Shown one piece after another: positions 8,001-58,323 of a stretch of DNA of 64,000 nt. Position 1 is the stretch's first letter. Each line of letters starts with the position of its first letter. This DNA comes from Blasia pusilla (taxonomy: Eukaryota). Position numbers and translations under genes: made by a program. The stretch spans positions 32,922,001 to 32,986,000 of the forward strand of contig CM114271.1 in the NCBI GenBank assembly GCA_050084515.1, given 5' to 3'. Below the pieces are notes generated by a model. It saw only the letters and a list, made by a program, of their open reading frames with translations, did not search any database and had not been told where the DNA came from.

Positions 8001-8179
8001 TACTTACCTAAAATAATAAGTTATTCAATATGGCTCCAAATGAGCTGAGGCTTGAGGAAACCTGCCGTCTCAGGTTTCCTCAAGCCTCAGTAGGTCATAC
8101 TCGACCTATTGAGCATGTCCTCCACTACTCACGAAGGCGCTCTACTAGATCTCACCGATTTATCCTAAAAAACGTGACA
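5095..8179 (-). mobile_element. Internally deleted, non-coding copy of the DNMT-Gypsy family (A1 - leader - deletion - end of A2 + B2), TSD ACTA
   Basis: On the minus strand it begins TGTCACG (8179) and ends GCGCACGACA (5095). ACTA lies at 5091-5094 and 8180-8183. 7665-7420 matches 44707-44957, and 6800-5975 matches ~48230-49026. Confidence 0.88.
5335..5974 (+). mobile_element. Solo terminal-repeat unit (A+B) nested in opposite orientation inside the 5095-8179 copy
   Basis: (C)GTCACGTCTTTTAGGATAG...ATGCGCACGACA, highly similar to 35148-35817. Flanked by CCTC/CTTC (4-bp TSD, 1 mismatch). The uninterrupted target, with a single GAGG, is visible at ~49024. Confidence 0.88.
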
Positions 8180-8269
8180 ACTATTACTGATATCTCTCAA
8201 CCTTCTTTTTTTGTTTGGTTGTCTTGCAATGCCCGGTTGGGAACATGCTTTGCTTCTTGGATTTTGTTC

Positions 8270-35147: not shown

Positions 35148-35817
35148 TGTCACGTCTCTTAGGATAGATCAGTGAGATCTAGTAGAGCGCCTTTGTGAGT
35201 AGCGGAGAACATGCTTATTAGGTCAAGGATGACCTGTTGAGGCCCCGGGAAACTTGAGAGAGCAGGTTTTCCCTTCGTTTCGGCTTATTTGGAGTCATAT
35301 TGAGGAACTTACTATTTTAGGTAATTACCAGTGTGAGTATATGATTGACTTTCTATTTTTGGCAAGCGATCCTCGACCTCCTACATCAGGTCAAGAGCCA
35401 AGGAGGTGACTTGGGAGAATAGGCTATCATTGAGAGAGTTTGGGAGAGGGGAGATGTATACCTCAAGGAGAGAGAGAGTTTGAGAGCTCATTCTCTCTTT
35501 GTTGAACCTCTTGGTATGAGGTGGCGGAGTTATGATCCCTTGCCTTGTGAGTGTAACCCAAGCCTCTCATTAGGAGAGTGGGTTTGGTTTGACATGAGAG
35601 AGAGTGCACACCTTTGAGAGCTATGGTGTGAGATGGTGTAGAGAGAGATTGGATCTTACTTTAATTGGAGATATTTTGGTACTTATTGTCTCGTTGTTTG
35701 GATGCCATGAGTTAGCATGGGATCGTGATGCCATAAGTTAGCATGGGATCGTGCATGTTTGTGTGTGTGTTCAGTGACACAGATGTATGTTGTGTCTCAA
35801 TGTGTATGCACACGACA
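35148..35817 (+). mobile_element. Solo terminal-repeat unit (A+B, 670 bp) with perfect 4-bp TSD TCTT
   Basis: TGTCACG...GCACACGACA, with TCTT at 35144-35147 and 35818-35821. Homologous to 5335-5974 and 56229-56864. Confidence 0.92.
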
Positions 35818-40859: not shown

Positions 40860-42450
40860 GACCAGAAAAGGAAGAAGGGGGCATTCCCCCTAACGACGAA
40901 ACTCACCAACAGCAGAGACAATATCAGCAACAACAAGAGAGCTATGACTACTACTAAGTGGGCCTCTAGCGCCGGTGTCTCCCACCCCTGAGCCCGCGCA
41001 AAATCCCATTAGCCTGGCACGCGCAACGCTATGGAGACCCGCTGCCTACAATCTGAGAATCGCAGTAGCTAAGGACAACCCATTTCTCGAGTGGAGATGA
41101 TGGGCGCGATCCGAATGAACGAAGTCGAACCTCTCCCCATAGCCCCATACATCTCTATGGCCAGGGGGATGAAGATGTGTCCCTCGTGTAGTCGACTGTA
41201 GATATGTGTCTTCTTCGCCGCCGCCGCCGCTCCTTGTAGCATTCGCCCTTGGGCCACCACTTGGGCTCGCACTGCCTCCCGCGTAGGATCTGTGACTACC
41301 ACGTCCGCCACAACCACCTCAGCCTCACGTGTCATGTAGAGATCGGCACGAATGAGGGAATCCCGCATGGAGTAGTGCCTCTCTCTTTGCACATGGAAGC
41401 CACTCTCCCGAGCAATATTGAACATGATATCCCGCACTGCATCGTGAGTGGCTATCCTCTCACCCCCAACTGGACAGCGTGCCAAATGCACACCAAGTGG
41501 ATCCAGGCTCCGGCGACACTCGCAGTGTGTCGAACCAACCACCGATGGTTGGGGGAGGCCCAAGCGGAACCGCATCGCTGTGGTATAGGTAAGTGGTGCG
41601 ATACGGAAAGCCTGGAGAAGGGGGTGCGCCCCTACCCATGAGCCTGCCCCCTTTCCGGAGCAAGAGCGAATACGGGCCCTAACCTCCATGGGGATATTCC
41701 CGTCAGACATAGTGCCTCTAAAAACTGCCTCAAAGTGGGCTTCCATCAAGGAAGATTGGAGCCCAGACTGACCGGAGGTAACTAAGGAGGAGAAAGTGGG
41801 GAGAACGGCTTTGGCCTCAACTCGAAGGGAATCTCTACAAGCTATGAGTGAAGGACTGAAAGGGAAAGAGCCATCCTCGACACGGGAGACGAGTGTAGAA
41901 GGAGCGGTCTATCTCTAACCAAAAATCGGGAGCAAAGGAGGGTGCCACTGTGGCCCAACTCTCTAAAAAAAGCGGAGGGCGCCACTAACTCGGTCGAGAG
42001 AAGACCTACTCCACCAAAAGAAATCGGCCAAGAGGCTGTCTCACGAGCTAACTCCCCCATGGGGCACTCTAAGGAGCCGGGTCCTAGAAGATCCCCAAAC
42101 ACTGCATGAGCTTCCTATCAAAGGATCTATATAGGGAAGAAAGGTGACTAGATGTCCGGCAGTTCTAGTGAGGTAACCAGGTCTACGAGCAAAACAAGAA
42201 GAGAGAATGCCGAAGGCGACTTGAGGGTCACCAATCCTTGTAAGATCATCAACGTGGAGAAGATCCTCGGTAAGAGCCGCTGCCACGAAAGTCGATACAA
42301 AGTCCTGGCTCCCGAGCGGTACTCCCAAGACTCGAAGCCCTCCGACAGGTCGCAAGAAGCCGTCGGGTAAATGTAGATCATCACGTAGGCCTGATGGAGA
42401 CCAAGCCTTGCACTTCCCCACCTTCACCGCCAGGCCGACACGTTTCAAGA
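40860..42450 (-). mobile_element. 5'-truncated RLE-type non-LTR retrotransposon (CRE-like clade): RT C-terminus/thumb, zinc knuckle and restriction-like endonuclease
   Basis: GLAVKVGKCKAWSP..GLRVLGVPLGSQDFV; WPISFGGVGL; RFRLGLP..CECRRSLDPLGVHLARC..GGERIATHDAVRD; RADL..VVADVVVTDP..KTHIY..FIPLAIEMYG. Confidence 0.85.
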
Positions 42451-42689: not shown

Positions 42690-43310
42690 GTCGAGTACAA
42701 GAAAAGAAAAACGGGGGCATCCTTCTATCTCCTAAACTCACCAACAAAGACAATATCAACGACACCGAGAGGGAAGTGATTACCACTAAGTGGGTTTCTA
42801 GTGTTGACGTCTCCCACAATCTGAGCATGCCGCATCTTGAGCAATACTGAACATGATATCCTGCACAACATCGTGAGCGGAAATCCTCTTACCTCCAAGT
42901 AGACAGCGTGCTAAATGCACACCAAGTGGATCTAGACTTCGGTGATACTCACAATGTTTCGAACCAGTCACCAATGGTTGGGGAAGGCCTAGTCAGAACC
43001 GCATTGCACCATTTACCTATGGTGTAGGTAAATGGTGCGATACGGAAAGCCGGGATGAGGGGATGAGCCCCCAACCATGAGCCTTCCCCCTTTCCAGAGC
43101 AAGAGCGAATACGGGCGCGGACGTCCATGGGAATATCCCCATCCGACATACTGACTCTAAAAGCTGCCTTAAAGTAGGTTTCCATTAAAGAAGATTGGAG
43201 CGCAGACCGACCGGAGGTAACTAGGGAGGAGAAAGTAGGGAGAACGGCTCTAGCCTAATCTAGAAGGGAATCTCTACATGCTCCAAGGGAAGAATGTAGA
43301 AGAGAAGCCG
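42690..43310 (-). mobile_element. Second, shorter and internally deleted fragment of the same CRE-like element
   Basis: DGDIPMDVRARIRSCSGKGEGSWLGAHPL is nearly identical to the 41749-41600 translation. The 3' part (CTAAGTGGG) matches ~40900-40985. Confidence 0.85.
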
Positions 43311-43392
43311 AGATGTAGGGTACCTTAATATAGATGCATGGCCACCCTTGACCACCAAATATTTCAAGGTTTTAGGGGTCCTTCTAGTAATT

Positions 43393-43855
43393 CCGTCATC
43401 CAACTCCGTCTAGAATCGGCCATAAGCGCCTACATAGTGTAGCTCGCTGGCTACACCATGTAGCCAATGAGCTACACGGTGCTCCCGAGAGCACCCGCAT
43501 GGGGCAATCCGCCCCCATACTCAATCTTTATAAAAAATTGGGCAGCACTTCCGCATGCCACTCTTCCACACAAAAAATCGGCAACCGCAAAGCACAACCA
43601 AAGCCGCCCTTGCTCCGGTGAGCACTCCCATGAGCCGTTGAATGGGGAATACTGTCCCCAACCTGCAACAACAGCGAGTGAACAACAAGCTCCTCCATTG
43701 AAACTCTCTTACTCTCTCATTTCCTCTTTGTAAATCGCTCAAATCTCACACTATGTCTCACACCAAGCTCTCCATGGTGTGCACTCTCTCTCTCATGTCA
43801 AACCAAACCCACTCTCCTAATGAGAGGCTTGGGTTACACACACAAGGCAAGGAGG
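43393..43855 (-). mobile_element. Fragment of a third copy of the Gypsy 5' end (3' part of A plus start of leader)
   Basis: Reverse complement matches ~44660-45071, plus A sequence seen at 56610-56670. Confidence 0.9.
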
Positions 43856-44029
43856 AACATACGTTTTCCATATGCAATCTTGACGTCGGTAGACTAGATG
43901 GAGAGAAAAGAAAACAAGAAGTGCTTGTAAGGGCCGTAACAAGTAATTTTGACATATTAAATTATATTTTCTTTAAGTGCAGAGTTGCAGATTTGATTAG
44001 TATGGAAGTGGGTTTACATCAAAGTGCAT

Positions 44030-44433
44030 TCCCTTCATGGAGTCCCACTAAGTTTGTCCTCCCATTGCTGCCCGAACTTCCTATCTCTACTGTCATGTCT
44101 TTTAGGATAGATCGGCGAGATCTAGTATAGCGCCTTCGGAGATACTCGAGGATAGCCTCAAGAGGTTGAGGATGACCAGCTGAGGCAACGGGTAACCTAC
44201 GAGAGCAGGTTTTCCCTTTGTTTCGGCTCCAAATCCCTTCATGGAGTCCCACTAAGTTTGTCCTCCCATTGTTGCCCGAACTTCCTATCTCTACTGTCAT
44301 GTCTTTTAGGATAGATCGGCAAGATCTAGTAGAGCGCCTTCGGAGATACTCGAGGATAGCCTCAAGAGGTTGAGGATGACCTGCTGAGGCAACGAGTAAC
44401 CTACGAGAGCAGGTTTTCCCTTTGTTTCGGCTC
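44030..44433. repeat. 200-bp tandem duplication spanning the element's 5' junction
   Basis: 44030-44229 and 44234-44433 are nearly identical, separated by CAAA. Each contains flank, CTAC and the first ~139 bp of segment A. Confidence 0.93.
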
Positions 44434-44586
44434 ATTTGGAGCCATATTGAGGAACTTACTATTTCGGGTAAGTTACTCTTTGTGGTATAGTTTTCTTTCC
44501 ACTTTTGGAAGTTTCCTTTGACCCGCTATAGTAGATCAAGAGCCAAGGAGGTGACCTACGAGCATAGGTTATCGTGGAGAGGGCTT

Positions 44587-44668
<82 letters not shown>

Positions 44669-45633
44669 ACACCATGGAGAGCTTGGTGTGAGATTTGAGC
44701 GATTTACAAAGAGGGAATGAGAGAGTGAGAGAGTTTCAATGGAGGAGCTCGCTGGTCACTCACTGTTGTTGCAGGTTGAGGACCCTATTCCCCGTTCAGC
44801 GACTCATGGGAGTGCTAATCGGAGCAAGGGAGGCTTTGGTTGTGCTTTGCGGTTGCCGATTTTTTGTGTGGAAGAGTGGCGCGCGGGAGCGCTGCCCAAT
44901 TTTTGATAAGGTTTAAGTATGGGGGCGCGTTGCCCCATGCAGGTGCTCTCGGGAGCACTGGCATGTGTAGCTACGTGCCTACACTGTGTAGCTTGTTGGC
45001 TACATGGTGTCACCAACGAGCTACACAGTGTAGGCGCGTATGGCCGGTTCTAGACGGAGTTGGATGACGGAAAGGACATGGCTGGGTAGTCACGGCGATA
45101 ACATGTAGCATCATCAATAGCCGCGGATGGCAAAGCATAGTCTGGCCGTGAAGTGCAGCCGCAGAAGACTGGCCATGGAGTCAGGCGCGTGGCTCGCCGG
45201 TGACAAGCAAGGTTACCAACATCTCGCGGCAAGATGAGCGACAGGCTGAGTCCGGCGGCTCAAATTGGGATTGACAACATGACTCCCTTCCCCACATTTG
45301 AAGGGCCAAGGCAAGGCGGTCAGACTTTCTCTAAATTTGGAACCCCCCCACCAAATTATCTTTTGTTTTTAACTATAATGATCCCCGGAAAAACTATATC
45401 TACTCTCATAAAATATCCCACTTAGCCCACCAATAGTGGGTCAACTCCTCTAAATCTTTTTTTTCACTCAACTTCTATTCACAAGCAAATTTATTATTGT
45501 CCTATCCACTCAACATAGAAGGTCTTACTTTTCTAACCCTCAATTGAAAATTTACCAAGTATTTTTGAAGTTTGATCCTTCCCAAGCGATGGCTATGGCA
45601 ACCTACCAAAAAAATGTCGTAACTTTGTGCTCA

Positions 45634-47580
45634 CACAATGAAATTGTGCACCGTTTCTTCCACAACGTGCACACCTTCCCGATCTAGGACAAATTCAAAT
45701 TGATTTCTTCATTCAACCTTCCAACAAAAACTAATAGGGACTGTTATGCAACCCAACGTCTCTTCTCCTACGCAAAATTTGGCAGCGCTTGGGCGAGAGT
45801 AGGGAGGCCCAGTGTGGTCGTGAAGTGCGGTTCCGGCTTGCTACGGAGTAGTTCCAACCGAACAATTTTGGTTTTTGTAACGTGGTAGGCGGCTGCCAAT
45901 TTGGAGCCCTAGCAATGCGCCGACAGCAAGAGGTGGAGCGGGGCAACACCGAGCCATGCACAATGAAATTGTGCACCGTTTCTTCCACAACGTGCACACC
46001 TTCCCGATCTAGGACAAATTCAAATTGATTTCTTCATTCAACCTTCCAACAAAAACTAATAGGGACTGTCATGCAACCCAACGTCTCTTCTCCTACGCAA
46101 AATTTGGCAGCGCTTGGGCGAGAGTAGGGAGGCCCAGTGTGGTCGTGAAGTGCGGTTCCGGCTTGCTACGGAGTAGTTCCAACCGAACAATTTTGGTTTT
46201 TGTAACGTGGTAGGCGGCTGCCAATTTGGAGCCCTAGCAATGCGTTGACAGCAAGAGGTGGAGCGGGGCAACACCGAGCCGTGCACAATGAAATTGTGCA
46301 CCGTTTCTTCCACAACGTGCACACCTTCCCGATCTAGGACAAATTCAAATTGATTTCTTCATTCAACCTTCCAACAAAAACTAATAGGGACTGTCATGCA
46401 ACCCAACGTCTCTTCTCCTACGCAAAATTTGGCAGCGCTTGGGCGAGAGTAGGGAGGCCCAGTGTGGCCGTGAAGTGCGGTTCCGGCTTGCTACGGAGTA
46501 GTTCCAACCGAACAATTTTGGTTTTTGTAACGTGGTAGGCGGCTGCCAATTTGGAGCCCTAGCAATGCGTTGACAGCAAGAGGTGGAGCGGGGCAACCCG
46601 AGCCGTGCACAATGAAATTGTGCACCGTTTCTTCCACAACGTGCACACCTTCGATCTAGGACAAATTCAAATTGATTTCTTCATTCAACCTTCCAACAAA
46701 AACTAATAGGTGTCATGCAACCCAACGTCTCTTCTCCTACGCAAAATTTGGCAGCGCTTGGCGAGTAGGGAGGCCGGTGTGGCCGTGAAGTGCGGTTCCG
46801 GCTTGCTACGGAGTAGTTCCAACCGAACAATTTTGGTTTTTGTAACGTGGTAGGCGGCTGCCAATTTGGAGCCCTAGCAATGCGTTGACAGCAAGAGGTG
46901 GAGCGGGGGCAACACCGAGCCGTGCACAATGAAATTGTGCACCGTTTCTTCCACAGCGTGCACACCTTCCCGATCTAGGACAAATTCAAATTGATTTCTT
47001 CATTCAACCTTCCAACAAAAACTAATAGGGACTGTCATGCAACCCAACGTCTCTTCTCCTACGCAAAATTTGGCAGCGCTTGGGCGAGAGTAGGGAGGCC
47101 CAGTGTGGCCGTGAAGTGCGGTTCCGGCTTGCTACGGAGTAGTTCCAACCGAAAATTTTTGGTTTTTGTAACGTGGTAGGCGGCTGCCAATTTGGAGCCC
47201 TAGCAATGCGTTGACAGCAAGAGGTGGAGCGGGGGCAACACCGAGCCGTGCACAATGAAATTGTGCACCGTTTCTTCCACAGCGTGCACACCTTCCCGAT
47301 CTAGGACAAATTCAAATTGATTTCTTCATTCAACCTTCCAACAAAAACTAATAGGGACTGTCATGCAACCCAACGTCTCTTCTCCTACGCAAAATTTGGC
47401 AGCGCTTGGGCGAGAGTAGGGAGGCCCAATGTGGCCGTGAAGTGCGGTTCCGGCTTGCTACGGAGTAGTTCCAACCGAACAATTTTGGTTTTTGTAACGT
47501 GGTATGCGGCTGCCAATTTGGAGCCCTAGCAATGCGCCGACAGCAAGAGGTGGAGCGGGGCAACACCGAGCCGTGCACAA
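45634..47580. repeat. Tandem array of six ~325-bp units inside the retrotransposon leader
   Basis: Unit starts (CACAATGAAATTGTGCACCG) at 45634, 45959, 46284, 46608, 46925 and 47251; very few differences between units. Confidence 0.97.
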
Positions 47581-49159
47581 CGGCCTCCACCACGACCCTC
47601 AATTGGTGCCCATGTGGCTTCCCATGAGTGCGATCAACGCGGCTATAACAAGGCTAACAAGCGGCCTTTGATGGCGGAAGGCGGGCAGGCATAGTCGGTT
47701 CGTGAAGTGCGGCCAAGGCATTGGTGGCTGTGTTTATAGGTTTGAAGTTTTTGTTGGGAGAAATCAACCCAAGAATTCCGCTGGCGCCTTACTCTAAGGT
47801 GCTCCAACTCCGTAACCCCGGCCTGACATTGCTCTACTGGCCTTGTCGCGGTCTCCGGTTTGCTTGCCGTGCTAAGCTATTCCTGACCCTGTTGTGAACT
47901 CCACGCAGCTGCTGCCGTGTGTTGCTATGGTGCAACTGCCTACTTCATCCGCAGGCTACTGACTACTGCGTCTGGTCATTCTAGCCGGCGCAGTTAGTGA
48001 TTGTGGCCATGGCCGCCTGACATTAGCTGTTGGCTCCATCCAGATGCCGTTGCCTTCGTCAAATGAAGTTCTTGCACAGTAAAAAATAGGACGATGGGCC
48101 CTACGGACAACTGATTTTGCAATTTTTGGCTGCTGATGAGAGGTTGTAACTGCTCGTCACCGATCGACCGAGGATTGGCCGCTCAGCGATGACATGTGAA
48201 CTTTTTTGAGTGATGGGGTCGCCATTTCTTTTATGCCTTGCTATGTCTTGAGATTGGTAGCTGCTCGACGACGTTCGAGTACCGTGCCGTGACACCTGTA
48301 GCAACAACGCGCCGCTGATTGCCGTGCCGTGCCGCTTGTGGCTGCACCGCATCATCTCGATCGTGAAGCCGCACCATCATTGGAGCAGAGTGTGTTTTGA
48401 TTTTAAGGAGGGTATACGGCATCCTATTCTCGAGTGCCGTGCTGTTCCGTTCCACCAGTGCCGCACCATGCCGTTGGACCCGCACCGCACATTGAGAAGA
48501 TTTGAGCATCGTCATTATCACAGGAGTGCGACTTGATGCTTGGAGGAGTTTGTCTTCACGACCAAGTTGGGGTTGAAATTTGTAGTTGCTGAGGAGCGAC
48601 ATCGATACTTGTTCAGGTTACCCATTTTGGTCTTTTGCCCTGCACGTGTTAGGGAATTCCGGGTATTGGGCAATTATTTGGGGATATTGGGTTTCGTGCA
48701 GATGCTGAGAGCATCGTTGATGTATGGGTTTAGGGGACATAGACGTGTGTGGGATGTCCATATTTGAGGGTATGTTTTGTCGATGAGAGGGTAGATCAGT
48801 CGATTTTCCGCACCACGCTGCTTGTTGCAGCACAACAAACGTCTCAGTGAGAGTGTGTAGATTGAGTGCCGCCTGTTTAGTTTGAGTGATTGAGTGATTA
48901 CTCGCAAGATTGAGAGTGATCGTGTGAGAGAGGCACAAGGGTCATTACGGGGTCCTTTCAGGACTTTGAGAGGCGAGGTGGTGGGCCTGAGGGTAGCTCT
49001 AGAGGATTTACACGGAGTGGCGTGAGGTTTCAAGCATCTCCACTTGAGGGGCCGTCTCGACCTCCTTCTGTGTCATCTTTAAACCAGGAGGAGAGTGCAG
49101 AGGAGTTTGTTAGTGCATTACCGCACATATTGAGTGGTCCTACCAGTTGGGCGTACAAG

Positions 49160-51200
49160 ATGGACGAGCGGGGTAGAGGACCACATAGGTTTCCGGGTGC
49201 TATAGGCACAATAGAGTTGCACGACTTTATTGCAGAGTTTTGGAGTTGATGTGAGTCACAACGGGAAAGGAACTCCAGAGAGTTCAACCCGTTTACAACA
49301 TGGAATAGAATATTTCAACATTTAGAGGGGGCACCCATGGACGATTACCATGAGTTCTCCCACCGATACGACCAGGAGATTGAGGCATGGAGACTCTACT
49401 ATGATCCACATTATGTGTCATGGACTGATCCGTTTCCAAATGAGGAGGAGGAGTCGGGAGAGGCTACTTCTTCTTCCACCAGTGATGTTGTAGGAGGGGT
49501 AACTTGCACTGGAGCAGTTGCACCATCTAGTCAGGTTCATCCCAGGTTTAACCCCATGGTTGAGTTCTTTGTTGAGTTGCGGACGAGCTACCAAGGGGTA
49601 TAGACGGAGAAGTTGCGGAGTATCCACGACTTCTAGAGGCGTCGGGTGAGAGTTTGCATGAGGCCTACACTCGTTTGCGCCGGTTGATTAGCATCACTCA
49701 GGGGGTGACAAAGTCCCAGACTATCCAGTCATGGTACGTGATGCTGGACCAAAACTTGCGGACACAGATGAGGGATGGGGTGCTTCTTATGAACACCTCC
49801 CCTACATTGAGAGATGTTTTTATGACCACCAAGAACATTGAGCACAACATGGCGGAGGAGAGCGTAGCCACCATGGGTTATGCGCGAAAGCAGTCACGAT
49901 TGCTTATACCACCAGTGCAGCAACGTGCATTTTGAGAGAGGTCTGTGGCACCACGAGTTCAGAGAGGATATCGGGAGGCCGTGCCACAAACACCTGCGCC
50001 TTCATATGCGGCTAAGAAATAGCCGCCAGCGATTATTTGTTCAGCATGTGGTGGAGCCCATCACCAACGCGATTGCACTCGTCAGGGGCATGGACGTGTG
50101 CCTCGGCATGGAGGAGGAGATGGTGCTGCACTAGGAGTTTATCAGTGTGACTATTTTTAGAGGTATGGTCACACACGCGCCAGGTGATTTAGCCTTCATC
50201 CTAAGTTACGTCCACACCGAGGGCCACAGAGGGCACCAGAGCGAGTTTTCGGTCCGGGTGGGCCTAGAGATCGTGCACCAGGTGGTCCCGTTGGGGGACA
50301 AGGAGTTGGAGTTTCCCGAGGGGGTGGTGGAGTTTCCCATGCAAGAGGTACAGTTCCACCACCTAGATGTGTCCAAGGAGACGTCAAGCGTGAGACTGGG
50401 ATGGCTCCTTAGATACAGCATCAACAGATTGTTGCTATGGCATTGAGGTTCCCCGATGCCGGAGCCAAAGCCGGGGCACTGACGTCTTATGGAGCAACTG
50501 GAGATATGGAGGATCCTAGCTAGATGTGCGCAATTGTTGAGTTGGAGGCAGTTGATGTTGTTACATGTGGAGCCGCCGTAGAGTGGGATCCATAGAGAGG
50601 GGAAGCATCACGTTCAGAGGTGATTGCAAAGGAGGTGATGGACCTGCCCTTGGAGCCAATGCTCGGGCCGCCCACCTCAGATTCATGGCAAGTTGCAGAT
50701 GCTAGGATGGCGGAGATGCCCGCTAGACCCACGATAGAGCGTGCCATGGTTGCTCCACGTGTTGTGTTGATGGATAACCGGGGAAAGATCTTCCAATTGG
50801 TGAGTCCAGGAGGTAGATTTTTTTTCTGCAGCGTGTCTTGTTAGATTCAAGAGCGCAACCCCTGATGTTGTGGAAGGCGGAATTTATAGGTTTGGGCTTG
50901 ACAAGGGCCGATGTGGAGCATTTTTCATTCCGGATACAAACATCCTTGGATGGAGCGAGTACCACACAATTTATCACTTGACATGAGGTTGTGGTGAGGA
51001 TTCGCCCATGACATCCTACCGATGAGTCCGTGGTGCAAGCCAAGGCGATAGTGACCGATGCCGAGTCCTACAACGTCTTGGTTGATGGAGCAGTGTTGTA
51101 CCCGATGGGGTTTTCCCTAAACAAGGAGTCAGCGTCTTACAAACCACGATGGTAGTCCGATGATGGGCACCTTAGCTCATTACCTGTTCGATTCACGGGT
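49160..51200 (+). pseudogene. gag: gag (two zinc knuckles) and aspartic protease, disrupted
   Basis: MDERGRGPHRFPG..ELHDFIAEF; ESLHEAYTRLRRLI; CSACGGAHHQRDC (~50038); CDYF*RYGHTRAR (~50146); protease VLLDSRAQ (~50835; decayed D-S-G) and YNVLVDG. Confidence 0.8.
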
Positions 51201-51539
51201 GGAGTGATCGAGCGACGACCAAGAGAGATGGCGACATTAGCCGTGTTCAAAAGCGCCATCACGTGGCCTTGTGATTTGATTGAGGGGCATGCCCATGCAG
51301 AGGACACTCCCGCGCCTGACACTTCTAGGGAGAGTAATGTTATGGTAGCAAGATCAATCTGTGGAGGAGAGGTGTTGTTGTGGAGCTCGAGTGAGGAGCT
51401 TCGACGCTTGGTCGATGAGCATGTATAGATGGCGTGGAGTCAGGTGTTTGCATCAGAGCGTGATGGGTCACAAAAACCCAAGGTAGCCAAGAGTGCTACT
51501 ATGACCCCTTTGGACACCACCTCAATTGTGTGGTGCATC

Positions 51540-52500
51540 CCAGAGGAGGGTATTCGCGTGTTGGATCTCTTTGGAGGGATCATAACAGGCTTAGCTGATG
51601 TTTTGCAGGCAGGAGTGTGCGTGCAGTAGTATTGTACGTTGAGATTGATGATGATGCGAGGCGCGCTTCACTTCGCCATGTGGCACAATTTTTCCTCTGA
51701 TGTCCCGAATTTTTTTCTGTGTCCGCCGTCTAGGGGTTCCAAAGTTCCCTACCGAGGGACATTTCATTGTTGGGGGCGCAGGACTTGGAGTGGGTAGGGA
51801 CCATAGATTTGGTCATTGCTGGTTGGCCGTGTCAGGACGAGTCAAGTGTTGGAGAAGGTAGCGGGTTGGGTGACACTCGATCCGGGTTATTTTGGGAAAT
51901 GATACGGATCTTGCGACACTTGCAAGAACATCAATCTCGTTCTCCAGCATCCATTCTAGAGAATATACCAATTTTGGGCGATTTGAGGTCTCGCGTAGTG
52001 ACGAGTGCACATCAGGTGCATGCATGGATTGGCTGTGTAGTATTGTTGGATGCGGCGAGTGTAGATTCATGAGCATATCGCCCGCCTCTTTGGTGGACCC
52101 AACTTGGTGCTACATGACTTGTTGCGGAGGGATTATGCAAGAGTGGAGAGCTCCTCTGATTTGTTGGTGGATTCTATTGTGGATCCAGGTCGTCCATCAC
52201 AGGCAATGAGGCACGATGATCGACCGCCATTGACTGTGATCAACAGGATTGGCATGCTTGGGGCAGCCTTTCCCACATTGGTGAGTTTTCCCGCCCCCTA
52301 TGCATTCAAGGAGGGTGGGCCTGGCTTAGTTTGGGATGATGAGGTACAGCGGTTGATGGAGCCCAACGCCGATGAGCGAGAGCAAGCGATGGGATTCCCC
52401 ACAAGAGTGACGGAAATATCATCACTATTAGAGGCATCAAAATGCCATGTCTTGGGTTAGGCAATAGACCTGAACTGTTTGATATGGATGTTCAACTTAG
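51540..52500 (+). pseudogene. C5 cytosine DNA methyltransferase domain within the pol polyprotein (frameshifts and stops)
   Basis: Motifs in canonical order: I IRVLDLFGGI (51552), II YVEIDDDAR, III PRDI, IV IDLVIAGWPCQD (catalytic PC at 51827-51832), V GLGDTRSGLFWEMIRIL, VI ILENIP, VIII LDAASVDS*AYR..LWWTN, IX EPNADEREQAMGFP, X HVLG*AIDLN. Confidence 0.92.
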
Positions 52501-52919
52501 GAGTAGTTGATCATCGTCGTTTGAGGTTGCGACAGATTACACTTGTTGCGTTGGTGAGCCCCATGCCTACTGAGATGGTTCAAGTATTGGCTGGGGGCGA
52601 GACCCAAGGAAATCGACACACCAAGTGTGATCGGGAGAGACACCCTTAGACTTCTTGGGTTGTTTTGCATGTACATTGAGAGATGATAGCCACAACATCG
52701 AGCGTGATTCCTGGTACTGTACGTGGAGGAGATCACAGTTTGCAGTTGGCTACAAGGGAGCAGACGAGTTCTATTGTCCGAGAGGAGGTTCCATCACAAC
52801 AACCATTGACATCCGTGCCGGAGAGTCCTAACATAGACATGATGGAGACTTGGGAGCCAGATATGGGTCCTAAGTAGATAGGAGGAGAGCGGCGCCAGAT
52901 ACACTAGTTCCTTAGGAGT

Positions 52920-55680
52920 TATAGGAGTTGTTTTTCATTTTGCATGCATGATTTGGGTACACTAAAGGGTACATGGATCCGCATTAAGTTGTCGAGCGAC
53001 ACGCCAATCTTCTTACAACCCTACAGGTATAGTGATATGGAGAGGGCTCTGATTCAGAGTAGAAGCCAAGACTTGGTTGGAGTAGGATTAGTGGAGATGT
53101 CGCATGGAGAGTATGCATCTCCCACTGTCATGCCCGCCAAGAAGGATGTGCATGGCAACTGGATGGATAGGCGGATGTGGGAGATTACCAACCTATCAAT
53201 CGGTAGACAAAGTCCGATAGGTATGCCATGCCCACCCATGAGGAGATCTTTGATGCTATTGGGCAAACAAAGATCTTCAGTTCGTTAGATCTTCGAGCCG
53301 GATACTATCAATTGCCTATCAGATTGGAGGATAGGCAAAAGACAACATTTTGGGGCATCGATCCTCACGGGAAAGATTTCTTGTACTAGTGGCACTTCTT
53401 ACCATTTGGGTTAAAGAATACCACGGCTGAGTTTCAGAGGGTCATGGATAGGATCTTGGAAGGTCTAGATTTTGCTAGGTGTTACATTGATGACATCGTA
53501 GTCTTTAGCGCCACGGTTGAGGAGCATGAGCGACATCTTGAGGAGGTGTTTCCACAATTGCACTAACATGGGCAGAAATTATATCTAGGCAAGTGCAAGT
53601 TCTTCTACAACCCGATTGAGTATCTGGGTCATACAATATACCTACGGGGCCTTGGTATGCAGCAGACAAAGGGAGAGGCTATTTCACGCATTCCACGCCC
53701 TACAGATGGGAGTCAAGTTCTTGCATTCATGAGACTGGCGAACTTCTATTGATGGTATGTCAAGGGTTTCAGTTCAATTGCGAAGCCACTAACCTTGCTG
53801 ATCAAGGTGGATCATGAGTGGCATTGGGGGGATAAGCAGGAGAGAACATTTCAGCAACTTAAGGACAGATTGACGCCCCTATCCATATTGAGGAGATCGA
53901 TTAGGGGGCGTCCTTTCCAATTGCGTACACATTGGAGCATGTTGGGGCTTGGAGCGGTGCTTACCTAGCATGATGATGAGGGTAAAGAGAACTTTGTGGC
54001 TTACACTAGTCGCTCGAACAACATTGTAGAGTCGAAGTATAGCTCGTATGAGGGTGAGTGCTTGGCCGTAGTGTGGGCTGTCGCGCATTTCAAGTGTTAT
54101 TTATTTGGAAACCCCTTTACCATCATTATTGATGATCAGCCACTTAAGTGGGTGATGGAGTCCCACAAGCTTACATGGAAGCTTGGGAGGTGGGCTCTTT
54201 TGTTGCAAGAGTATAATTTCCACGCGGTACATAGACCTGGGACGCTCAACCAAGATGTAGATGGTTTGAGCAGTAACCCATGCGCGAGTCAGGGAGATGC
54301 GACTGAAGTTTGTTGGCATGGAGAGAGTGATGAGGAATTGGTGCCAGGATGGCAGACGTCAGTCTATTTGGGGTTGTTGGCTATGGAGAGCCGGATTGCT
54401 GAGACTTTGATGGTGAGGTCTGATGGAGAGTCCTTAGATCTAGAGGCCGGTGAGGAGACGACATGTGGCCAAGTCATTCACGACGATGGAGTTGTCTTGG
54501 AGTACCTGTGTATTGGCAAAGTCGTAGGCACAATGGGTGCTAGAGAGCAGGATCAGATCTTATAGTGATCCAAACGGTTCCGGTGGGAGGGGACACATGT
54601 GTTGCAAGTTTTGGAGGATGGTAGAGTACGTGTAGTGCCTCATCCTTCACAGAGAGCACCTTTGGTGCGTCACGCCCACAAGGAGTTGGATCATTTTGGA
54701 GTGAAGCCGACGTACAACTTGCTCCAAATACAGTATTGGTGGCGAGGCATGCAGATTGATGTTCAACATTTTGTTTCCAGATGCATCGTGTGTGATATGG
54801 TCCGAGCATCGTTCAATGCTCCGACTCCACCGTTGCATCCAATTCCGATCATGGGTTTAGGTTATAGACGAAGTTTGGATTTTGCAGTACCTTTACCTTT
54901 GACGGAGCGCCATAGTCGTTATGTGTTGTTGATGGTCGATCACTTCTTGAAGTGGATAGAGTTGGTTGCATTGCCTGACAAAGCAAGCAAGTGAGTAGCG
55001 TATGCCTTCCTAGATCGAGTGCTGAGTCATTACGGCGCACCAACTGAGGTGTTGATAGACAAGGGTTGAGAGTTTTGCGGGGAGTTTCAGGCCTTGTGTG
55101 ATCAGACACTGATCGACCACCGCACCACTTCGGGAGATCATCTTGAGGTGGATGGACTAGCGGAGAGGGTTGTGCAGACGGTGAAGAGAGGATTACCCAA
55201 GTATGGCTTGTAGAGAGGTTACATAGGAGATTGGGACCTCCAGTTTCCGTGGTTGGCGATGGGATACAGATTCAATAGGCAAGCATCCTTAACGTCTTTC
55301 TCACCGTACTTGCTCCTTTATGGTCGAGAGCCAGATTTACCTAAGGCCATTTATCGAGATGTTGGTTAGGTGTTGAACCTTGAAGACCCTGATGTATGGA
55401 TGCGAGCATATTCTTAGAGGGATGAATTGTTTCGGAGAGTGATGCCCATGGCGTTTGAGAGCTTGGCAATTGCGCAACATTGGGATACGTTGAGGTATGC
55501 GACTATTCGGGGAGGTGGTTATCGACCGACTATCTGGATGTTTCAACAGGGAGACTATGTCCACTTACAACAGACGGCACCCACGATGTTGGATGTGACC
55601 GCAGGGTGCACGGTACCATCTTGAGAGTGCGTGAATTTTTCTATCTGGTGTTCTCTTATTGGAGGGACGCGATGGTATGG
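52920..55680 (+). pseudogene. pol: Reverse transcriptase, RNase H and DDE integrase, disrupted
   Basis: YASPTVMPAKKD, LDLRAGYYQ, LPFGLKN, YIDD (53483), YLGH, YSSYEGECLAVVWAV, HAHKELDHFG..CIVC (HHCC), SLDFA, IDKG*EF, GLAERVV; RT-RH-INT order indicates Ty3/Gypsy. Confidence 0.95.
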
Positions 55681-55778
55681 TTTGGAAGGACCATGTGCGT
55701 AATTGTGCGCCATATCACCTTCCTAACATTGGCGGTACAATTGATCCAAGCTTAGCAGTAGTTCCTATAGGCTTGCCA

Positions 55779-55919
55779 TGTATGTTGCGTGGTTTTGCCC
55801 ATGGTGCAACCACTATGCTCGTATGTAATGGATGTTCGAGAGGATGGCATATGGCATGTTTGACGCTACCTCTCATTAGGGTTCCTCAGGGATGATGGAT
55901 GTGTCCCAGATGTACATAG
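55779..55919 (+). pseudogene. PHD finger at the integrase C-terminus
   Basis: CMLR....TMLVCNGCSRGWHMACLTLPLIRVPQG*WMCPRCT* fits the C4HC3 pattern, with the second Cys mutated (CGT) and one in-frame stop. Confidence 0.88.
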
Positions 55920-56664
55920 AGTAGGTAGTTATAGATTCCGACTTATGTCTGTGACATGAATGACAAGAAGGCGACTAACGATGGGGCCATATGAGCATCC
56001 GACCTGTTTGCTTTTAGCGTCCGAGAGATATATGTCATGGTAGGTAAGGATAGATGGCTATCTGGAGTTAGAGGGACCTAACCACCAACTAGGGGGAAAT
56101 TGGAGATACTTTGGTACTTCTTGTCTCGTTTTTTGAATTCCATGAGTTAGTATGGGATTATGTGTGTTTGTGTGTATGTTCGGTGATTGCGATGTATGTT
56201 GTATAGCGATGTGTATGCGCACGATAACTGTCACATATTTTAGGATAGATCAACGAGATCTAGTAGAGTGCCTTCAAAGATACTGGAGGAGAGCCTCAAG
56301 AGGTTGAGAAAGACCTGCTAAGGCCACGGGTAACGTGCAAGAGCTGGTTTTTCCTTCGTTTCGGCTCATTTGGAGCCACATTGAGGAACTTACTATTTTG
56401 GGTAAGTTATAGTGTATGGTATAGTTGAATTTCCACTTTGGGAAGTGGCCCTTAACCCGCTACACCAAGTCAAGAGCTAGGAGGTGACGTGTGAGCATAG
56501 GTTATCGTGGAGAGGGATTGGGAGAGGGAAGGGTGTTTACCTCCAAGAGAGAGCTTAAGAGCTCATTCTTTTTGTTGAACCTCTTGGCATGAGGCGACGG
56601 AGCTATGGTCTTCCTTGCTTTGTGTGTGTAACCCAAGCCTCTCATTAGGAGAGTGGGTTTGGTT

Positions 56665-56729
<65 letters not shown>

Positions 56730-58323
56730 TGTGCATACCATGTAGAGCTTGGTGTGAAACATTATGTGAGATTTGAGCGATTTAATGGGATTATGTGTGT
56801 TGTGTGTTTGTGTGTATGTTGTGACAACGACGTATGTTGTGTAGCAATGTGTATGCGCACGATACTACTAGAGTCTGCAAATTTTTTTCCAATGTCCTTT
56901 TCTCATAGCAATATGAATGATTTCCAACAATTTTCCAGCACCAAAAATTTTATTCCATACATGAACTCTTAGAGCTCAAAATAAATTGGAATAGTGAAAA
57001 CATCATGTAACACGAGGCTATAATTTACCACTTTGCAAAAGTCTACATTTGCATTCATGAAACCACTTTTGATATGGAATTAAAGTACATGTGGCTCTCG
57101 CAATTATGGTAGTCATTGGCTAAGTTTTGAAGGCTTATAGTTTTGATTCTTCTCAAAATTTTAAGATTTTTATAATGACTCATTTTCCTTTTAATTCAAA
57201 TTTCCTCATTTTACAGATTTCCATAGGAAATATTTGAAATTTCTTGCTCTGAAAACAATGTGGGCACCAGCCGGCCTTATATACACACACTCTCCAAGAA
57301 AGACCCGTCAACTTCTTCTACCTAAAAGTCCTAGATGAGAATTGAGCTACTCTTAATTAGCGATCGTTAATCAAGAACAAAATTAGATTGTCTTTTTGCC
57401 CATCTTCGATCTAAAATTCCTAGATGAGAATTGAGCTACTCTTTATTTAGGAGCAAAGTTAGATTGTGTCTTAACGTCCATTAATACCAAGCTAAGCAAC
57501 ACCAAACTTGCAACTAGTGGACATGTATTTCTTTACCCGTCCCATGGTGGACACATTTTCCTATTGTTTCTATATCTTACAGAATTAAACATGCAAATTG
57601 TTGTACAGTTCTCATGCGTCTTTATGAAATGCTAAAATTAGCTTACTCCAATGGTTACTCTCGGGCTTACTTGGTAACCTTTAGGTCACGTCATTGCTCA
57701 TCGTGATTTGGGGGATACTTAATCGATGAGAAATCACTTTTCTCACATCCATCTTGCTTAGCGATTTTGAATCATTTTTATCTTGTTCGTACTTTTCAGA
57801 GTTATTTCAAGGAAACATACTTTTGTGAGCCATAAAACTAGGTTTGTGGAGTAATTCCTTTGGTTGTCTTCCATGGAGCTCAACAATTGTGGCCGGTATG
57901 CAATACAAGTGGCAATTAAACTTGACTTCACTCTTTGAAATAACAAACGTTTAAATTCATCCTCATATATACTTCATACCATTATAATGAAATAGAACAT
58001 CCATTCACCTCAACCTCCCCTCCACAGACAAGGGGAGAGATGAGCCTCCAAGAAAACCTTTGGAAGAGCGTTGTTTGGTTTTGGAGGTTTCTAGGTTTCA
58101 CGAAATGAACTTCACTTCTTTAGAGCTAGGATTATAACTTGCCAATGAGTGTAGGTGGGACATGAACTGGAGGAAGCACAATGTCAACATTTCCTATGCT
58201 GGCTTCCTGCATCTGTTTGCAATAGTTTGGCATTCGCAACCAATGAAGAATTCAACCCTCCAATGGAATGGGAGGAAGTTGAAGGGTGTGCGCATGGAAG
58301 GTCAAGCTATCTTGGAAGGATCC

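What the first reader, a model, noticed from the sequence alone, without database searches (positions are those of the whole stretch)
51540..52500. Gypsy retrotransposon encoding its own C5 DNA methyltransferase between protease and RT
Seen: recognisable C5-MTase motifs (I-VI, VIII-X, including the catalytic PC) lie on the same strand as, and between, the protease and RT of a TSD-bounded element, with no introns. Known: standard plant Gypsy pol has no such domain. DNMT-bearing retrotransposons were reported in dinoflagellates and the charophyte Klebsormidium (de Mendoza et al. 2018, recalled from memory); I do not recall a well-characterised land-plant case. The unpermuted motif order (I first) and absence of a chromodomain argue against capture of host DRM or CMT. 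Inference: the enzyme could methylate the element's own cDNA or new insertions. This copy is dead, but family members are dense here, so intact copies may exist elsewhere.
Basis: partly seen in the sequence, partly recalled or inferred. Interest (0 to 1): 0.93.

Follow-up and report, generated by a model that had tools for sequence, protein, structure and literature searches.

The report
Dead Gypsy retrotransposon carrying DNMT3 methyltransferase
This is a decayed copy of a jumping gene that carries its own DNA-methylating enzyme, a kind of element described once in a green alga and here found to be abundant and transcribed in a moss-like land plant.

Summary
Window 51495-52619 (+) is a broken, intron-free C5 DNA methyltransferase domain. 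PF00145 scores 44.8 bits. The domain is 55% identical over 374 aligned residues to a Marchantia gene model. It lies between the protease and the RT of a 12.8-kb Ty3/Gypsy element (44091-56863).

The domain is DNMT3-type: 25 of 27 PDB sequence hits and every listed fold hit are DNMT3A/B/C.

It is not a one-off capture. Gene models from Marchantia, Calypogeia and Sphagnum are collinear with gag-PR-DNMT-RT. One environmental relative is a single 2188-aa gag-PR-DNMT-RT-RH-INT ORF. In genomic reads labelled with the species of the best partial holders, the DNMT segment reaches depth about 410-790, against about 3 for near-identical reads. Sense RNA reads cover it.

The terminal repeats are split (A...B-A-B) with a 4-bp TSD. 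The only described precedent, KnitGypsy-Dnmt3 of Klebsormidium, has the same arrangement (PMC5890265).

This copy is dead: in the DNMT alone there are two frameshifts and four stops, and motif VIII is destroyed.

It is a new member of a known kind. I found no land-plant report in print. Enzyme activity and its target remain untested.

The parts
44087..44090 (+). Left copy of the 4-bp target-site duplication (CTAC).
   Evidence: The same 4 bases follow the right end. L020 shows a 4-bp AAGG at its equivalent ends.
44091..44706 (+). 5' terminal repeat A1. It starts TGTCA and ends ...GCGATTTACA. It contains a later 204-bp tandem duplication (44030-44433) that repeats the flank/A boundary. No B segment follows it.
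   Evidence: Identity to A2 is 363/413 (88%).
45634..47580 (+). 325-bp tandem array, 6 copies at 97%, in the long leader between A1 and gag.
   Evidence: One unit also occurs at 7201-7351 beside another copy's end.
49175..50613 (+). gag, broken, with a frame change near 49633/49642.
   Evidence: tblastn with Marchantia P0182 residues 9-469: 35-48% identity.
50671..51200 (+). Aspartic protease. The active site DSG reads DSR here. There are stops at 50979, 51009 and 51153 and a frame change at 50818.
   Evidence: alignment to P0182 residues 578-870, 129/281 identical. Asp_protease_2 sits at the equivalent place in P0040.
51495..52619 (+). DNMT3-type C5 DNA methyltransferase domain: the finding. 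Broken by 2 frame changes and 4 stops.
52788..53968 (+). Reverse transcriptase, with a frame change at 53177.
53969..54565 (+). RNase H.
   Evidence: PF17917, 83.5 bits.
54569..55510 (+). Integrase: H2C2 zinc domain plus catalytic core.
   Evidence: PF17921, 54.7 bits. tblastn with P0040 and P0175.
55635..55916 (+). C-terminal PHD finger after the integrase, where chromoviruses carry a chromodomain.
   Evidence: PF00628 at 23.7 bits, just under its cut-off of 24. 60% identity to P0175 residues 946-1038. PF00628 is precomputed on relatives.
56091..56099 (+). Polypurine tract-like AGGGGGAAA directly upstream of B1.
   Evidence: L020 has GGGGGG at the same place.
56099..56224 (+). Repeat B1, an internal copy of the segment that ends the element.
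   Evidence: 83-88% identity to B at 5847-5972 and to B2.
56227..56784 (+). Repeat A2, the second copy of A. It starts TGTCA and abuts B1.
56786..56863 (+). Repeat B2, lacking the first ~50 bases of B. It ends ...GCGCACGATA at the right end of the element.
56864..56867 (+). Right copy of the 4-bp target-site duplication (CTAC).

Best explanation
The region is the methyltransferase domain of an old, dead copy of a Ty3/Gypsy-type retrotransposon spanning 44091-56863 on the + strand. The element belongs to a streptophyte lineage whose Gag-Pol polyprotein reads gag - protease - DNMT3-like C5 DNA methyltransferase - RT - RNase H - integrase - PHD finger. Its ends are split direct repeats (A ... B-A-B) rather than plain LTRs.

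Shown:
- The domain and its position.
- Its DNMT3 affinity.
- Its presence at the same place in relatives from liverworts, a moss, charophytes and many environmental contigs.
- Its high copy number and sense transcription in reads labelled with the species of the best partial holders.
- Conservation of the catalytic residues, and a dN/dS like that of RT-RNase H.
- The decay of this copy.

Inferred:
- In active family members the domain is translated within Pol and released or kept near RT.
- There it acts as a de novo cytosine-5 methyltransferase on the element's own newly made DNA, or on DNA at the integration site.
- The PHD finger on the integrase reads a histone mark to steer integration, by analogy with chromovirus chromodomains.

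My odds: identity and family membership 0.93. A catalytically active DNA methyltransferase in live copies about 0.6. The element's own cDNA as the main substrate about 0.35.
For: Domain:
- PF00145, 44.8 bits.
- 55% identity over 374 residues to Marchantia P0182, with motifs I, II, IV, VI and IX kept.

DNMT3 type:
- phmmer of P0182 against the PDB gave 25 of 27 hits to DNMT3A/3B/3C (best E 1.7e-8). The other two were M.HaeIII (1e-3) and a plant DRM, 4onj (2.6e-3).
- An AlphaFold model of the Marchantia domain (pLDDT 84.5) has every listed Foldseek PDB hit in DNMT3A/B/C, with target-normalised TM up to 0.83.
- The first non-element hit of the family profile is a fish DNMT3b.

Part of the element, not an insert:
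- P0182, P0188, P0201 (Marchantia) and P0256 (Sphagnum) are collinear with window gag-PR-DNMT-RT.
- P0040 is one 2188-aa ORF with zf-CCHC, Asp protease, DNA_methylase, RVT_1, RNase H and integrase in that order.
- 6 of 6 long loci examined have PR-DNMT-RT-RH-INT-PHD.
- Of 236 stored proteins with the domain, 67 show the PR-DNMT-RT order and 31 the RT-RH-DNMT-INT order. The other 138 show the DNMT alone and are mostly fragments.
- In the DNMT tree (83 rows, quick method) the window sits in a 12-row clade with Marchantia, Calypogeia and Sphagnum, SH-aLRT 100.

Copy number and expression (about 1% of run X12 was read, and reads had to be at least 85% alike):
- DNA depth (both columns summed) is about 410-790 over the DNMT bins, about 800-1250 over gag-PR and about 1050-2470 over RT-INT.
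- Only 196 of 105,443 laid DNA reads are at least 99% alike.
- Three RNA runs give depth 10-17 over the DNMT. Nearly all of it has the first mate on the - strand, which means sense RNA in most stranded libraries.

Constraint:
- The catalytic C, ENV, RxR and ERE positions are invariant in 11 domains that are 30-49% identical.
- Median dN/dS among the window and L001-L021 is 0.44 for DNMT (104 of 231 pairs usable), 0.42 for RT-RNase H (36 of 66) and 0.56 for PR (61 of 136).

Repeat anatomy:
- A1 / B1-A2-B2 with a 4-bp TSD in the window.
- All 5 loci that hold both A copies (L020, L036, L048, L057, L062; L048 and L057 are near-identical) have a B pair flanking A2.
- PMC5890265 (Fig. 4 legend) describes the same repeat layout for KnitGypsy-Dnmt3.
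Against: - No enzymatic activity has been shown for any Gypsy-DNMT3. The Klebsormidium domain gave no methylation in yeast, which the authors called inconclusive because human DNMT3B also failed.
- I found no full-length open Pol in a land plant. Only 1 of 21 bryophyte-like metagenome loci (L003) has an open DNMT. The Marchantia and Sphagnum proteins are gene models that may skip lesions.
- Two of the three DNMT pieces of the window gave no Pfam hit alone.
- DNMT read depth is only about 40-65% of gag-PR depth and 25-35% of RT-INT depth. Some family members, or related families recruited by RT-INT, may therefore lack the domain. Alternatively, this copy's DNMT may simply be more diverged.
- Many relatives read GWECQ instead of GWPCQ at the catalytic loop. 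The effect of this on catalysis is unknown.
- dN/dS values come from non-independent pairs of mostly dead copies. Window-to-locus dS is saturated.
- The tree has only one outgroup and no host plant DNMT3 or DRM, so it cannot say from which host lineage the domain came, or how often.
- No primer-binding site was recognised after A1.
Confidence: 0.93

Rival explanations
1. One-off event: a host DNMT3 gene or pseudogene, or a separate mobile element carrying it, landed inside this single Gypsy copy. The family as such would then have no methyltransferase.
For: DNMT read depth is lower than that of the flanking pol domains. The only other copy in the window (29990-32600, - strand) is cut off inside RT and cannot show a DNMT.
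Against: The same order occurs in Marchantia, Calypogeia and Sphagnum gene models. It occurs in 6 of 6 long loci and in the single ORF P0040. Depth over the DNMT is hundreds-fold, against about 3 for near-identical reads. None of the 15 best-supported read joints listed removes the domain, though 102 more were not shown. No repeats or TSD flank the domain.
Confidence: 0.01
2. The domain is a genuine family feature but is not a DNA methyltransferase in vivo. It could methylate RNA, such as the element's transcript. It could serve only as a DNA- or SAM-binding or oligomerising module. It could also be catalytically inert.
For: KnitGypsy-Dnmt3 gave no DNA methylation in yeast. Many relatives have E in place of the P of the catalytic PC dipeptide. 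The authors of PMC5890265 raise RNA methylation for the LINE-borne DNMT.
Against: The catalytic Cys, ENV Glu, RxR arginines and ERE are invariant across 11 distant domains, which points to selection for catalysis. The fold and the best sequence matches are to DNA enzymes, DNMT3A/B/C, not to DNMT2. SymbioDIRS-Dnmt3, another retrotransposon DNMT3, does methylate CG in yeast.
Confidence: 0.25
3. The enzyme acts mainly on host chromatin rather than on the element's own cDNA. It would methylate DNA around new insertions or genome-wide, so a transcribed high-copy family would add to the host's de novo methylation.
For: The family has hundreds of copies and sense transcripts in three RNA runs. A PHD reader is fused to the integrase. 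PMC5890265 discusses accidental genome methylation by such enzymes.
Against: No methylome data were available here. Most copies seen are broken, so little active protein may be made. Klebsormidium, which has such elements, has an ordinary methylome.
Confidence: 0.15

Closest known systems
KnitGypsy-Dnmt3 of Klebsormidium nitens (de Mendoza et al. 2018, PMC5890265; passages and sections 10-11 read)
   Same: It is an LTR/Gypsy-type element with an intron-free, unpermuted DNMT3-type domain inside the Pol ORF. Its repeats are arranged A-coding-B-A-B, unlike ordinary LTRs. Its copies carry CHG/CHH methylation in the alga.
   Different: The host here is a land plant of bryophyte affinity, not a charophyte. 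Copy number here is in the hundreds, whereas the paper stresses few copies in K. nitens. The position of the DNMT within the K. nitens Pol, and whether it has a PHD finger, are in a figure I could not see. No K. nitens sequence was available for direct comparison, and none appeared among the 74 rows.
SymbioDIRS-Dnmt3 of Symbiodinium (same paper)
   Same: It carries a DNMT3-type domain in a retrotransposon Pol and has split direct repeats. The enzyme was shown to methylate CG de novo in yeast.
   Different: It is a DIRS element with a tyrosine recombinase, not a DDE integrase. It has no TSD-making integration. The host lineage is unrelated and the acquisition was independent.
Host DNMT3 enzymes: mammalian DNMT3A/B/C, and plant DNMT3 with DUF3444 (Yaari 2019, PMC6453930, passages read)
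   Same: Motif order, catalytic residues and fold match. For example, motif I reads LFGGI.TGL here against LFDGIATGL in DNMT3A.
   Different: No PWWP, ADD or DUF3444 companion domains. The domain is embedded in a polyprotein, is about 20% identical to DNMT3A, and has a longer stretch between motifs VIII and IX.
Chromoviruses (Ty3/Gypsy elements with a chromodomain on the integrase)
   Same: A chromatin-reader domain is fused to the C-terminus of the integrase.
   Different: Chromoviruses have plain LTRs and no methyltransferase. Lineage assignment by RT phylogeny against a reference set such as REXdb was not done.
EpiLTRs (bioRxiv 10.64898/2026.05.21.726589, passages read)
   Same: They are LTR elements that assemble DNA-methyltransferase and chromatin-reader domains.
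   Different: They combine a prokaryotic-type adenine methyltransferase with a DNMT4-like cytosine enzyme and a chromodomain. Their DNMT is at the 3' end of pol. They occur in chlorophytes and Euglena.

Membership tests
Streptophyte Gypsy-DNMT3 retrotransposons (type: KnitGypsy-Dnmt3) | Ty3/Gypsy pol domains (PR, RT, RNase H, DDE integrase) in Gypsy order. | tested here: met
   The order is PR, RT, RH, INT on one strand.
Streptophyte Gypsy-DNMT3 retrotransposons (type: KnitGypsy-Dnmt3) | A DNMT3-type, unpermuted, intron-free C5-MTase inside the Pol reading frame. | tested here: met
   The frame continuity is broken in this copy but intact in relative P0040.
Streptophyte Gypsy-DNMT3 retrotransposons (type: KnitGypsy-Dnmt3) | Split direct repeats, A - coding - B - A - B. 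| tested here: met
   Window. Five of 5 loci holding both A copies.
Streptophyte Gypsy-DNMT3 retrotransposons (type: KnitGypsy-Dnmt3) | Sequence kinship of DNMT and RT with the K. nitens copies. | not testable with these tools
   No K. nitens sequence was at hand. Kinship is shown only with Marchantia, Calypogeia, Sphagnum, Closterium, Mesostigma and unnamed contigs.
DNMT3 family of C5 DNA methyltransferases | Linear motif order I-X with the catalytic Cys, ENV and RxR. The best matches to solved structures are DNMT3 rather than DNMT1, DNMT2, DRM or bacterial enzymes. | tested here: met
   on the Marchantia homologue and the family alignment. In the window copy, motifs VIII and X are mutated.
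DNMT3 family of C5 DNA methyltransferases | Placement inside the eukaryotic DNMT3 clade in a phylogeny that includes DRM, DNMT1, CMT and host plant DNMT3. | not tested
   The tree has only a fish DNMT3b as outgroup.
DNMT3 family of C5 DNA methyltransferases | Demonstrated DNA cytosine-5 methylation. | not testable with these tools
   This needs a bench assay. The precedent for Gypsy-DNMT3 is inconclusive.
Autonomous, active retrotransposon copy | Open gag-pol and matching terminal repeats. | tested here: not met
   At least 6 frame changes across the coding region. There are 4 stops in the DNMT, 4 in PR and 4 in RT-RH. A1 and A2 are only 88% identical.
Chromoviruses | A chromodomain at the integrase C-terminus. 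| tested here: not met
   Pfam gives a PHD finger (23.7 bits) and no chromodomain. Relatives carry PF00628.

The most novel reading that the evidence does not exclude
DNMT3-bearing Gypsy elements with split direct repeats and a PHD-tagged DDE integrase are an ancient, still-transcribed component of bryophyte genomes, including the model Marchantia polymorpha. Under this reading their enzyme is active. It would methylate the element's own cDNA or its landing sites, and through hundreds of transcribed copies it would contribute a transposon-encoded share of de novo methylation in land plants. The repeat layout together with a 4-bp TSD would also mean that a DDE integrase inserts a DNA whose ends are rebuilt from an internal B-A junction. 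That replication route has not been worked out for any LTR element.
Probability: 0.2. Interest if true: 0.8.

Novelty: new member of a known kind. Interest (0 to 1): 0.5.

Why it matters
Retrotransposons that encode the enzyme normally used to silence them are known from dinoflagellates and from one charophyte alga. Their purpose is unknown, and the Gypsy-type enzyme has never been shown to work.

This locus and its relatives place the Gypsy-DNMT3 lineage in land plants. The relatives include annotated but apparently undescribed gene models in Marchantia, Calypogeia and Sphagnum. In the read sets labelled with the species of the best partial holders, the family has high copy number and sense transcripts.

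That moves an open question into organisms where methylomes, transformation and genetics are routine. Do such elements methylate their own DNA, and does that help them or the host?

It is also a practical warning for annotation. DNMT counts in bryophyte genomes can be inflated by transposon copies.

The locus itself is a dead copy and has no function of its own.

Tried and rejected
- Own genome: none is held, so no genome-wide tBLASTn for open copies was possible.
The supplements of PMC5890265 (species survey, alignments) and the DNMT trees of later papers might already list bryophyte copies.
- The second family copy in the window (29990-32600, - strand) is truncated inside RT and carries no information on the DNMT.
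- The look-up of sequencing runs: no RNA holder was listed in the index, and the best DNA holders held only 0.06-0.13 of the words. I used raw-read runs added for sharing the species label of the best holder.
- A primer-binding site complementary to initiator tRNA-Met (a short motif recalled from memory) was not found within 3 mismatches downstream of A1.
- L009, L012 and L014 showed no long direct repeats. In L003 and L069 the second A copy touches the contig end. None of these could test the repeat layout.
- dN/dS between the window and the loci is unusable because dS exceeds 1.9.
- The protein atlas added only 'PF00145, Streptophyta' for the DNMT and 'legume-lectin receptor kinase-like, Streptophyta' for a neighbouring ORF.
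- Considered and rejected: DRM (permuted motifs; only the 27th of 27 PDB hits), CMT (no chromodomain or BAH inside the domain), a bacterial-type enzyme (M.HaeIII at only 1e-3), and assembly chimera (the same order is found in independent assemblies).
Full report
**What is in the sequence**

Stop-to-stop frames on the + strand between 51.4 and 52.6 kb contain three pieces with C5-methyltransferase motifs.
- Pfam confirms the middle piece, 51734-52072: PF00145, E 1.4e-11, 44.8 bits against a cut-off of 22.
- The two flanking pieces gave no family on their own.

A frameshift-aware alignment to the Marchantia polymorpha gene model Mp_4g09160 (P0182 residues 862-1236) runs without intron-like gaps from 51495 to 52619, with 205 of 374 positions identical.
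- The motifs follow the ordinary order. Motif numbering is recalled from general knowledge: I LDLFGGIITGL, II YVEID, IV GWPCQ, VI ENIP, IX EREQAMGFP.
- The copy is broken by frame changes near 51627 and 52100 and by stops at 51698, 51731, 52070 and 52458.
- Three of the stops stand where the homologue has arginine and one where it has glutamine.
- The stop at 52070 and two further changes destroy motif VIII (RAHRAR in the homologue).
- The stop at 52458 hits motif X.

**The element around it**

The same strand carries these domains:
- gag at 49175-50613.
- An aspartic protease whose active site DSG has become DSR, at about 50830-51120.
- RT at 52788-53968.
- RNase H at 53969-54565 (PF17917, 83.5 bits).
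- The integrase zinc and core domains at 54569-55510 (PF17921, 54.7 bits).
- A PHD finger at 55635-55916 (PF00628, 23.7 bits, just under its cut-off of 24).

The coding region changes frame at least six times, so the copy is dead.

Several signs point to long decay of a methylated sequence:
- CpG observed/expected is 0.66-0.72 in the element, against 1.08 in a nearby host ORF.
- At 577 listed places the window has A or T where family reads have G or C. The reverse holds at 191 places (counts by kind of change for run X12).
- The two copies of repeat A are 88% identical (363/413). The insertion is therefore old. An age in years would need a substitution rate that I did not establish.

**Terminal repeats**

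The ends are not plain LTRs.
- Repeat A occurs at the left end (44091-44706) and again at 56227-56784. It starts TGTCA. The left copy has a later 204-bp tandem duplication.
- A second repeat, B, occurs immediately before the right-hand A (56099-56224) and immediately after it (56786-56863). It ends ...CGACA in better-preserved copies. The copy before A is preceded by the purine run AGGGGGAAA.
- No B follows the left-hand A.
- The layout is thus A1 - coding - B1 - A2 - B2, flanked by a 4-bp CTAC on both sides.

The metagenome locus L020 is an independent relative. It has A1, a G-run, then B1, A2 and B2, flanked by a 4-bp AAGG.

All five loci that hold both A copies show a B pair around A2. These are L020, L036, L048, L057 and L062. 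L048 and L057 are near-identical.

This is the layout that de Mendoza et al. [quoted passage not shown] I read the Fig. 4 legend and the A-coding-B-A-B definition in the Fig. 1 legend.

I found no primer-binding site after A1.

**Is the methyltransferase part of the family?**

Yes. A phmmer search of 1.84 billion representatives with the 112-aa piece found 2451 proteins at E up to 1e-3 and 48 at E up to 1e-10.

Many of the long proteins among the best 150 also match the window's RT, RNase H, integrase and PHD pieces.

Word-indexed searches gave named relatives:
- 7 of 11 hits to the 112-aa piece are Marchantia polymorpha gene models and one is from Calypogeia fissa, at 62-65% identity.
- A profile of 11 domains found 74 longer proteins. 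Of these, 16 are from Marchantia, 1 from Calypogeia, 2 from Closterium and 1 from Sphagnum fallax. The first protein that is not an element is a fish DNMT3b at E 2.4e-18.
- Cluster look-ups added Closterium sp. NIES-54, Calypogeia fissa and Mesostigma viride.

Collinearity with the window:
- Marchantia P0182 matches window gag, PR and DNMT in order (49175-52619).
- P0188 continues into RT.
- P0201 covers PR-DNMT-RT-RNase H.
- Sphagnum P0256 covers gag to integrase.

The unnamed protein P0040 is a single 2188-aa ORF. Pfam places zf-CCHC at 530-547, Asp protease at 796-888, DNA_methylase at 978-1226, RVT_1 at 1421-1575, RNase H at 1638-1766 and integrase at 1895-2061.

Six of six long metagenome loci examined have PR-DNMT-RT-RH-INT-PHD.

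Among 236 stored proteins with the domain:
- 67 show the PR-DNMT-RT order.
- 31 show a second order, RT-RH-DNMT-INT(-PHD).
- 138 show only the DNMT and are mostly fragments.

In a quick maximum-likelihood tree of 83 DNMT domains:
- The second order forms one clade of 29 rows (SH-aLRT 100).
- The window falls in a 12-row clade with Marchantia, Calypogeia and Sphagnum (SH-aLRT 100).
- The window sits on a long branch, as expected for a pseudogene.
- Rows were limited to domains of at least 270 residues and thinned at 85% identity.

**Reads**

No whole genome is held for the window.
- The index of public runs found only partial holders, with 0.06-0.13 of the sampled words.
- It also offered raw-read runs that share the species label of the best partial holder.

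I laid one genomic run and three RNA runs on 48000-57000, at 85% likeness or better.

Genomic run (about 1% of it was read):
- Summed depth is about 800-1250 over gag-PR, about 410-790 over the five DNMT bins (51311-52815) and about 1050-2470 over RT-INT.
- Only 196 of 105,443 laid reads are at least 99% alike, which corresponds to a depth of about 3.
- The family therefore has on the order of hundreds of copies. The DNMT segment is itself highly repeated, at roughly half the depth of gag-PR.
- This rules out a private insertion. It leaves room for DNMT-less relatives, or for faster divergence of this segment.
- At three of the window copy's frame changes (near 49641, 53179 and 55634), between a third and 60% of the reads differ in length by one base. 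Those lesions are therefore private to this copy or its subfamily.

RNA runs:
- All three give depth 10-17 over the DNMT, 9-38 over gag-PR and 44-177 over RT-INT.
- Almost all of it has the first mate on the - strand, which in most stranded libraries means sense RNA.
- Few RNA reads are at least 99% alike (4-8 per run), so the transcripts come mostly from other copies.

**What kind of methyltransferase**

- phmmer of the Marchantia protein against PDB sequences returned 27 hits. Of these, 25 are DNMT3A, 3B or 3C (best E 1.7e-8), followed by M.HaeIII (1e-3) and a plant DRM (4onj, 2.6e-3).
- An AlphaFold model of the Marchantia domain, built on the 11-row alignment, has mean pLDDT 84.5 and pTM 0.84.
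- All Foldseek PDB matches listed down to rank 50 are DNMT3A/B/C chains. Target-normalised TM is up to 0.83 at about 20% identity.
- No PWWP, ADD, DUF3444, chromo or BAH domain accompanies it.

**Constraint**

- Across 11 domains that are 30-49% identical to the first, the catalytic Cys-Gln, Glu-Asn of motif VI, His-Arg-x-Arg of motif VIII and Glu-x-Glu of motif IX are invariant.
- Several relatives have E instead of P before the catalytic Cys.
- Codon-wise comparison of the window and loci L001-L021, guided by Marchantia proteins, used Nei-Gojobori counts. I kept pairs with dS of at least 0.15 that were not saturated.
- Median dN/dS was 0.44 for the DNMT (104 of 231 pairs), 0.42 for RT-RNase H (36 of 66) and 0.56 for PR (61 of 136).
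- These copies are mostly dead, the pairs are not independent, and window-to-locus dS is saturated.
- The fair reading is only that the DNMT has been as constrained as RT.
- Only 1 of 21 bryophyte-like loci has an open DNMT.
- Of 72 loci with a single long match, 19 lack stops, and 18 of those belong to the second architecture.

**Host**

- An ORF at 23413-24978 (- strand) has a legume-lectin domain (PF00139, 174 bits). It resembles streptophyte lectin receptor kinases.
- The closest named relatives of the element's RNase H piece are from the liverworts Riccia sorocarpa (58%) and Calypogeia fissa (53%).
- I take the host to be a land plant of bryophyte affinity. Its name is coded and I did not pursue it.

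**Literature**

- PMC5890265 describes DNMT3 in a Gypsy element of Klebsormidium nitens. It reports purifying selection and the odd repeat layout. Its yeast test of that enzyme showed no methylation, which the authors call inconclusive (passages and sections 10 and 11 read).
- A 2026 preprint refers to 'streptophytes (Gypsy-DNMT3)' (passages).
- Papers on Marchantia and Physcomitrium methyltransferases that I checked by passages list only host enzymes.
- Eight searches (plus the gene identifiers in 32) found no description of such an element in a land plant.
- Subscription journals and supplements were not searched, so this is absence in what I could see.

**How it most likely works**

Shown: the anatomy, the kinship, the copy number, the transcription and the residue conservation.

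Inferred:
- In live copies the domain is made as part of Gag-Pol, next to RT.
- It methylates cytosines in the newly synthesised element DNA or at the integration site.
- The PHD finger steers the integrase to particular chromatin.
- The internal B-A junction serves to rebuild complete ends, before a DDE integrase inserts the DNA with a 4-bp duplication.

Whether methylation protects the cDNA, tempers the element's own expression or affects the host is open.

**Verdict**

The kind is already known from a charophyte. What is new is its presence, abundance and transcription in land plants, including annotated models in Marchantia. This locus is an ordinary dead member of the family.

Noticed in passing
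window 45634-47580: A 325-bp tandem array (6 copies, 97% alike) lies inside the element's long leader between repeat A1 and gag. One unit also lies at 7201-7351 beside another copy's end.
   Followed up: partly
window 44030-44433: A 204-bp tandem duplication (2 copies, 97%) spans the junction of flank and element, so the left boundary of the element appears twice.
   Followed up: partly
window 43391-43861: This is an inverted copy of the end of repeat A plus the sequence that follows A1 (44603-45072, 84% alike). It is the truncated 5' end of another family copy lying head-to-head with the main element.
   Followed up: partly
window 5095-8180: A rearranged cluster of family pieces. It includes a complete A+B unit at 5336-5974 and an inverted A at 7666-8178 that is 96% identical to 5336-5847. 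Between them lie leader fragments in mixed orientation. This is either a non-autonomous derivative or two copies recombined.
   Followed up: no
window 29990-32600 (- strand) and 35148-35815: A second, related copy (74% DNA identity, 60-77% protein identity) keeps only RT-RNase H-integrase and is cut at both ends. A lone A+B unit on the other strand lies nearby.
   Followed up: partly
window 23413-24978 (- strand): An open 522-aa frame with a legume-lectin domain (PF00139, 174 bits) and CpG o/e of 1.08. It is probably the extracellular part of a host lectin receptor kinase.
   Followed up: partly
window 52963 to 54034 (reads): A joint skipping 1070 bases (most of RT) is seen in all three RNA runs (12, 23 and 9 reads) and in none of the sampled DNA reads. 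Its ends are not GT..AG. It is either an expressed deleted subfamily or an unusual processing event.
   Followed up: no
proteins P0040, P0038, P0144, P0122, P0061, P0101: Many element-borne DNMT3 domains read GWECQ instead of GWPCQ: the proline of the catalytic Pro-Cys pair is replaced by glutamate.
   Followed up: no
proteins P0087 and P0251: These unnamed environmental proteins combine PF00145 with PF05869 (a Dam-type adenine methyltransferase). This recalls the dual-methyltransferase 'EpiLTR' elements of a 2026 preprint. Their DNMT branches outside the two Gypsy clades.
   Followed up: no
window 41410-41853 and 42839-43292: A pair of direct repeats (83-85% alike) spaced about 1430 bases apart, next to a 279-aa open frame with no Pfam family. 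Unexplained.
   Followed up: no
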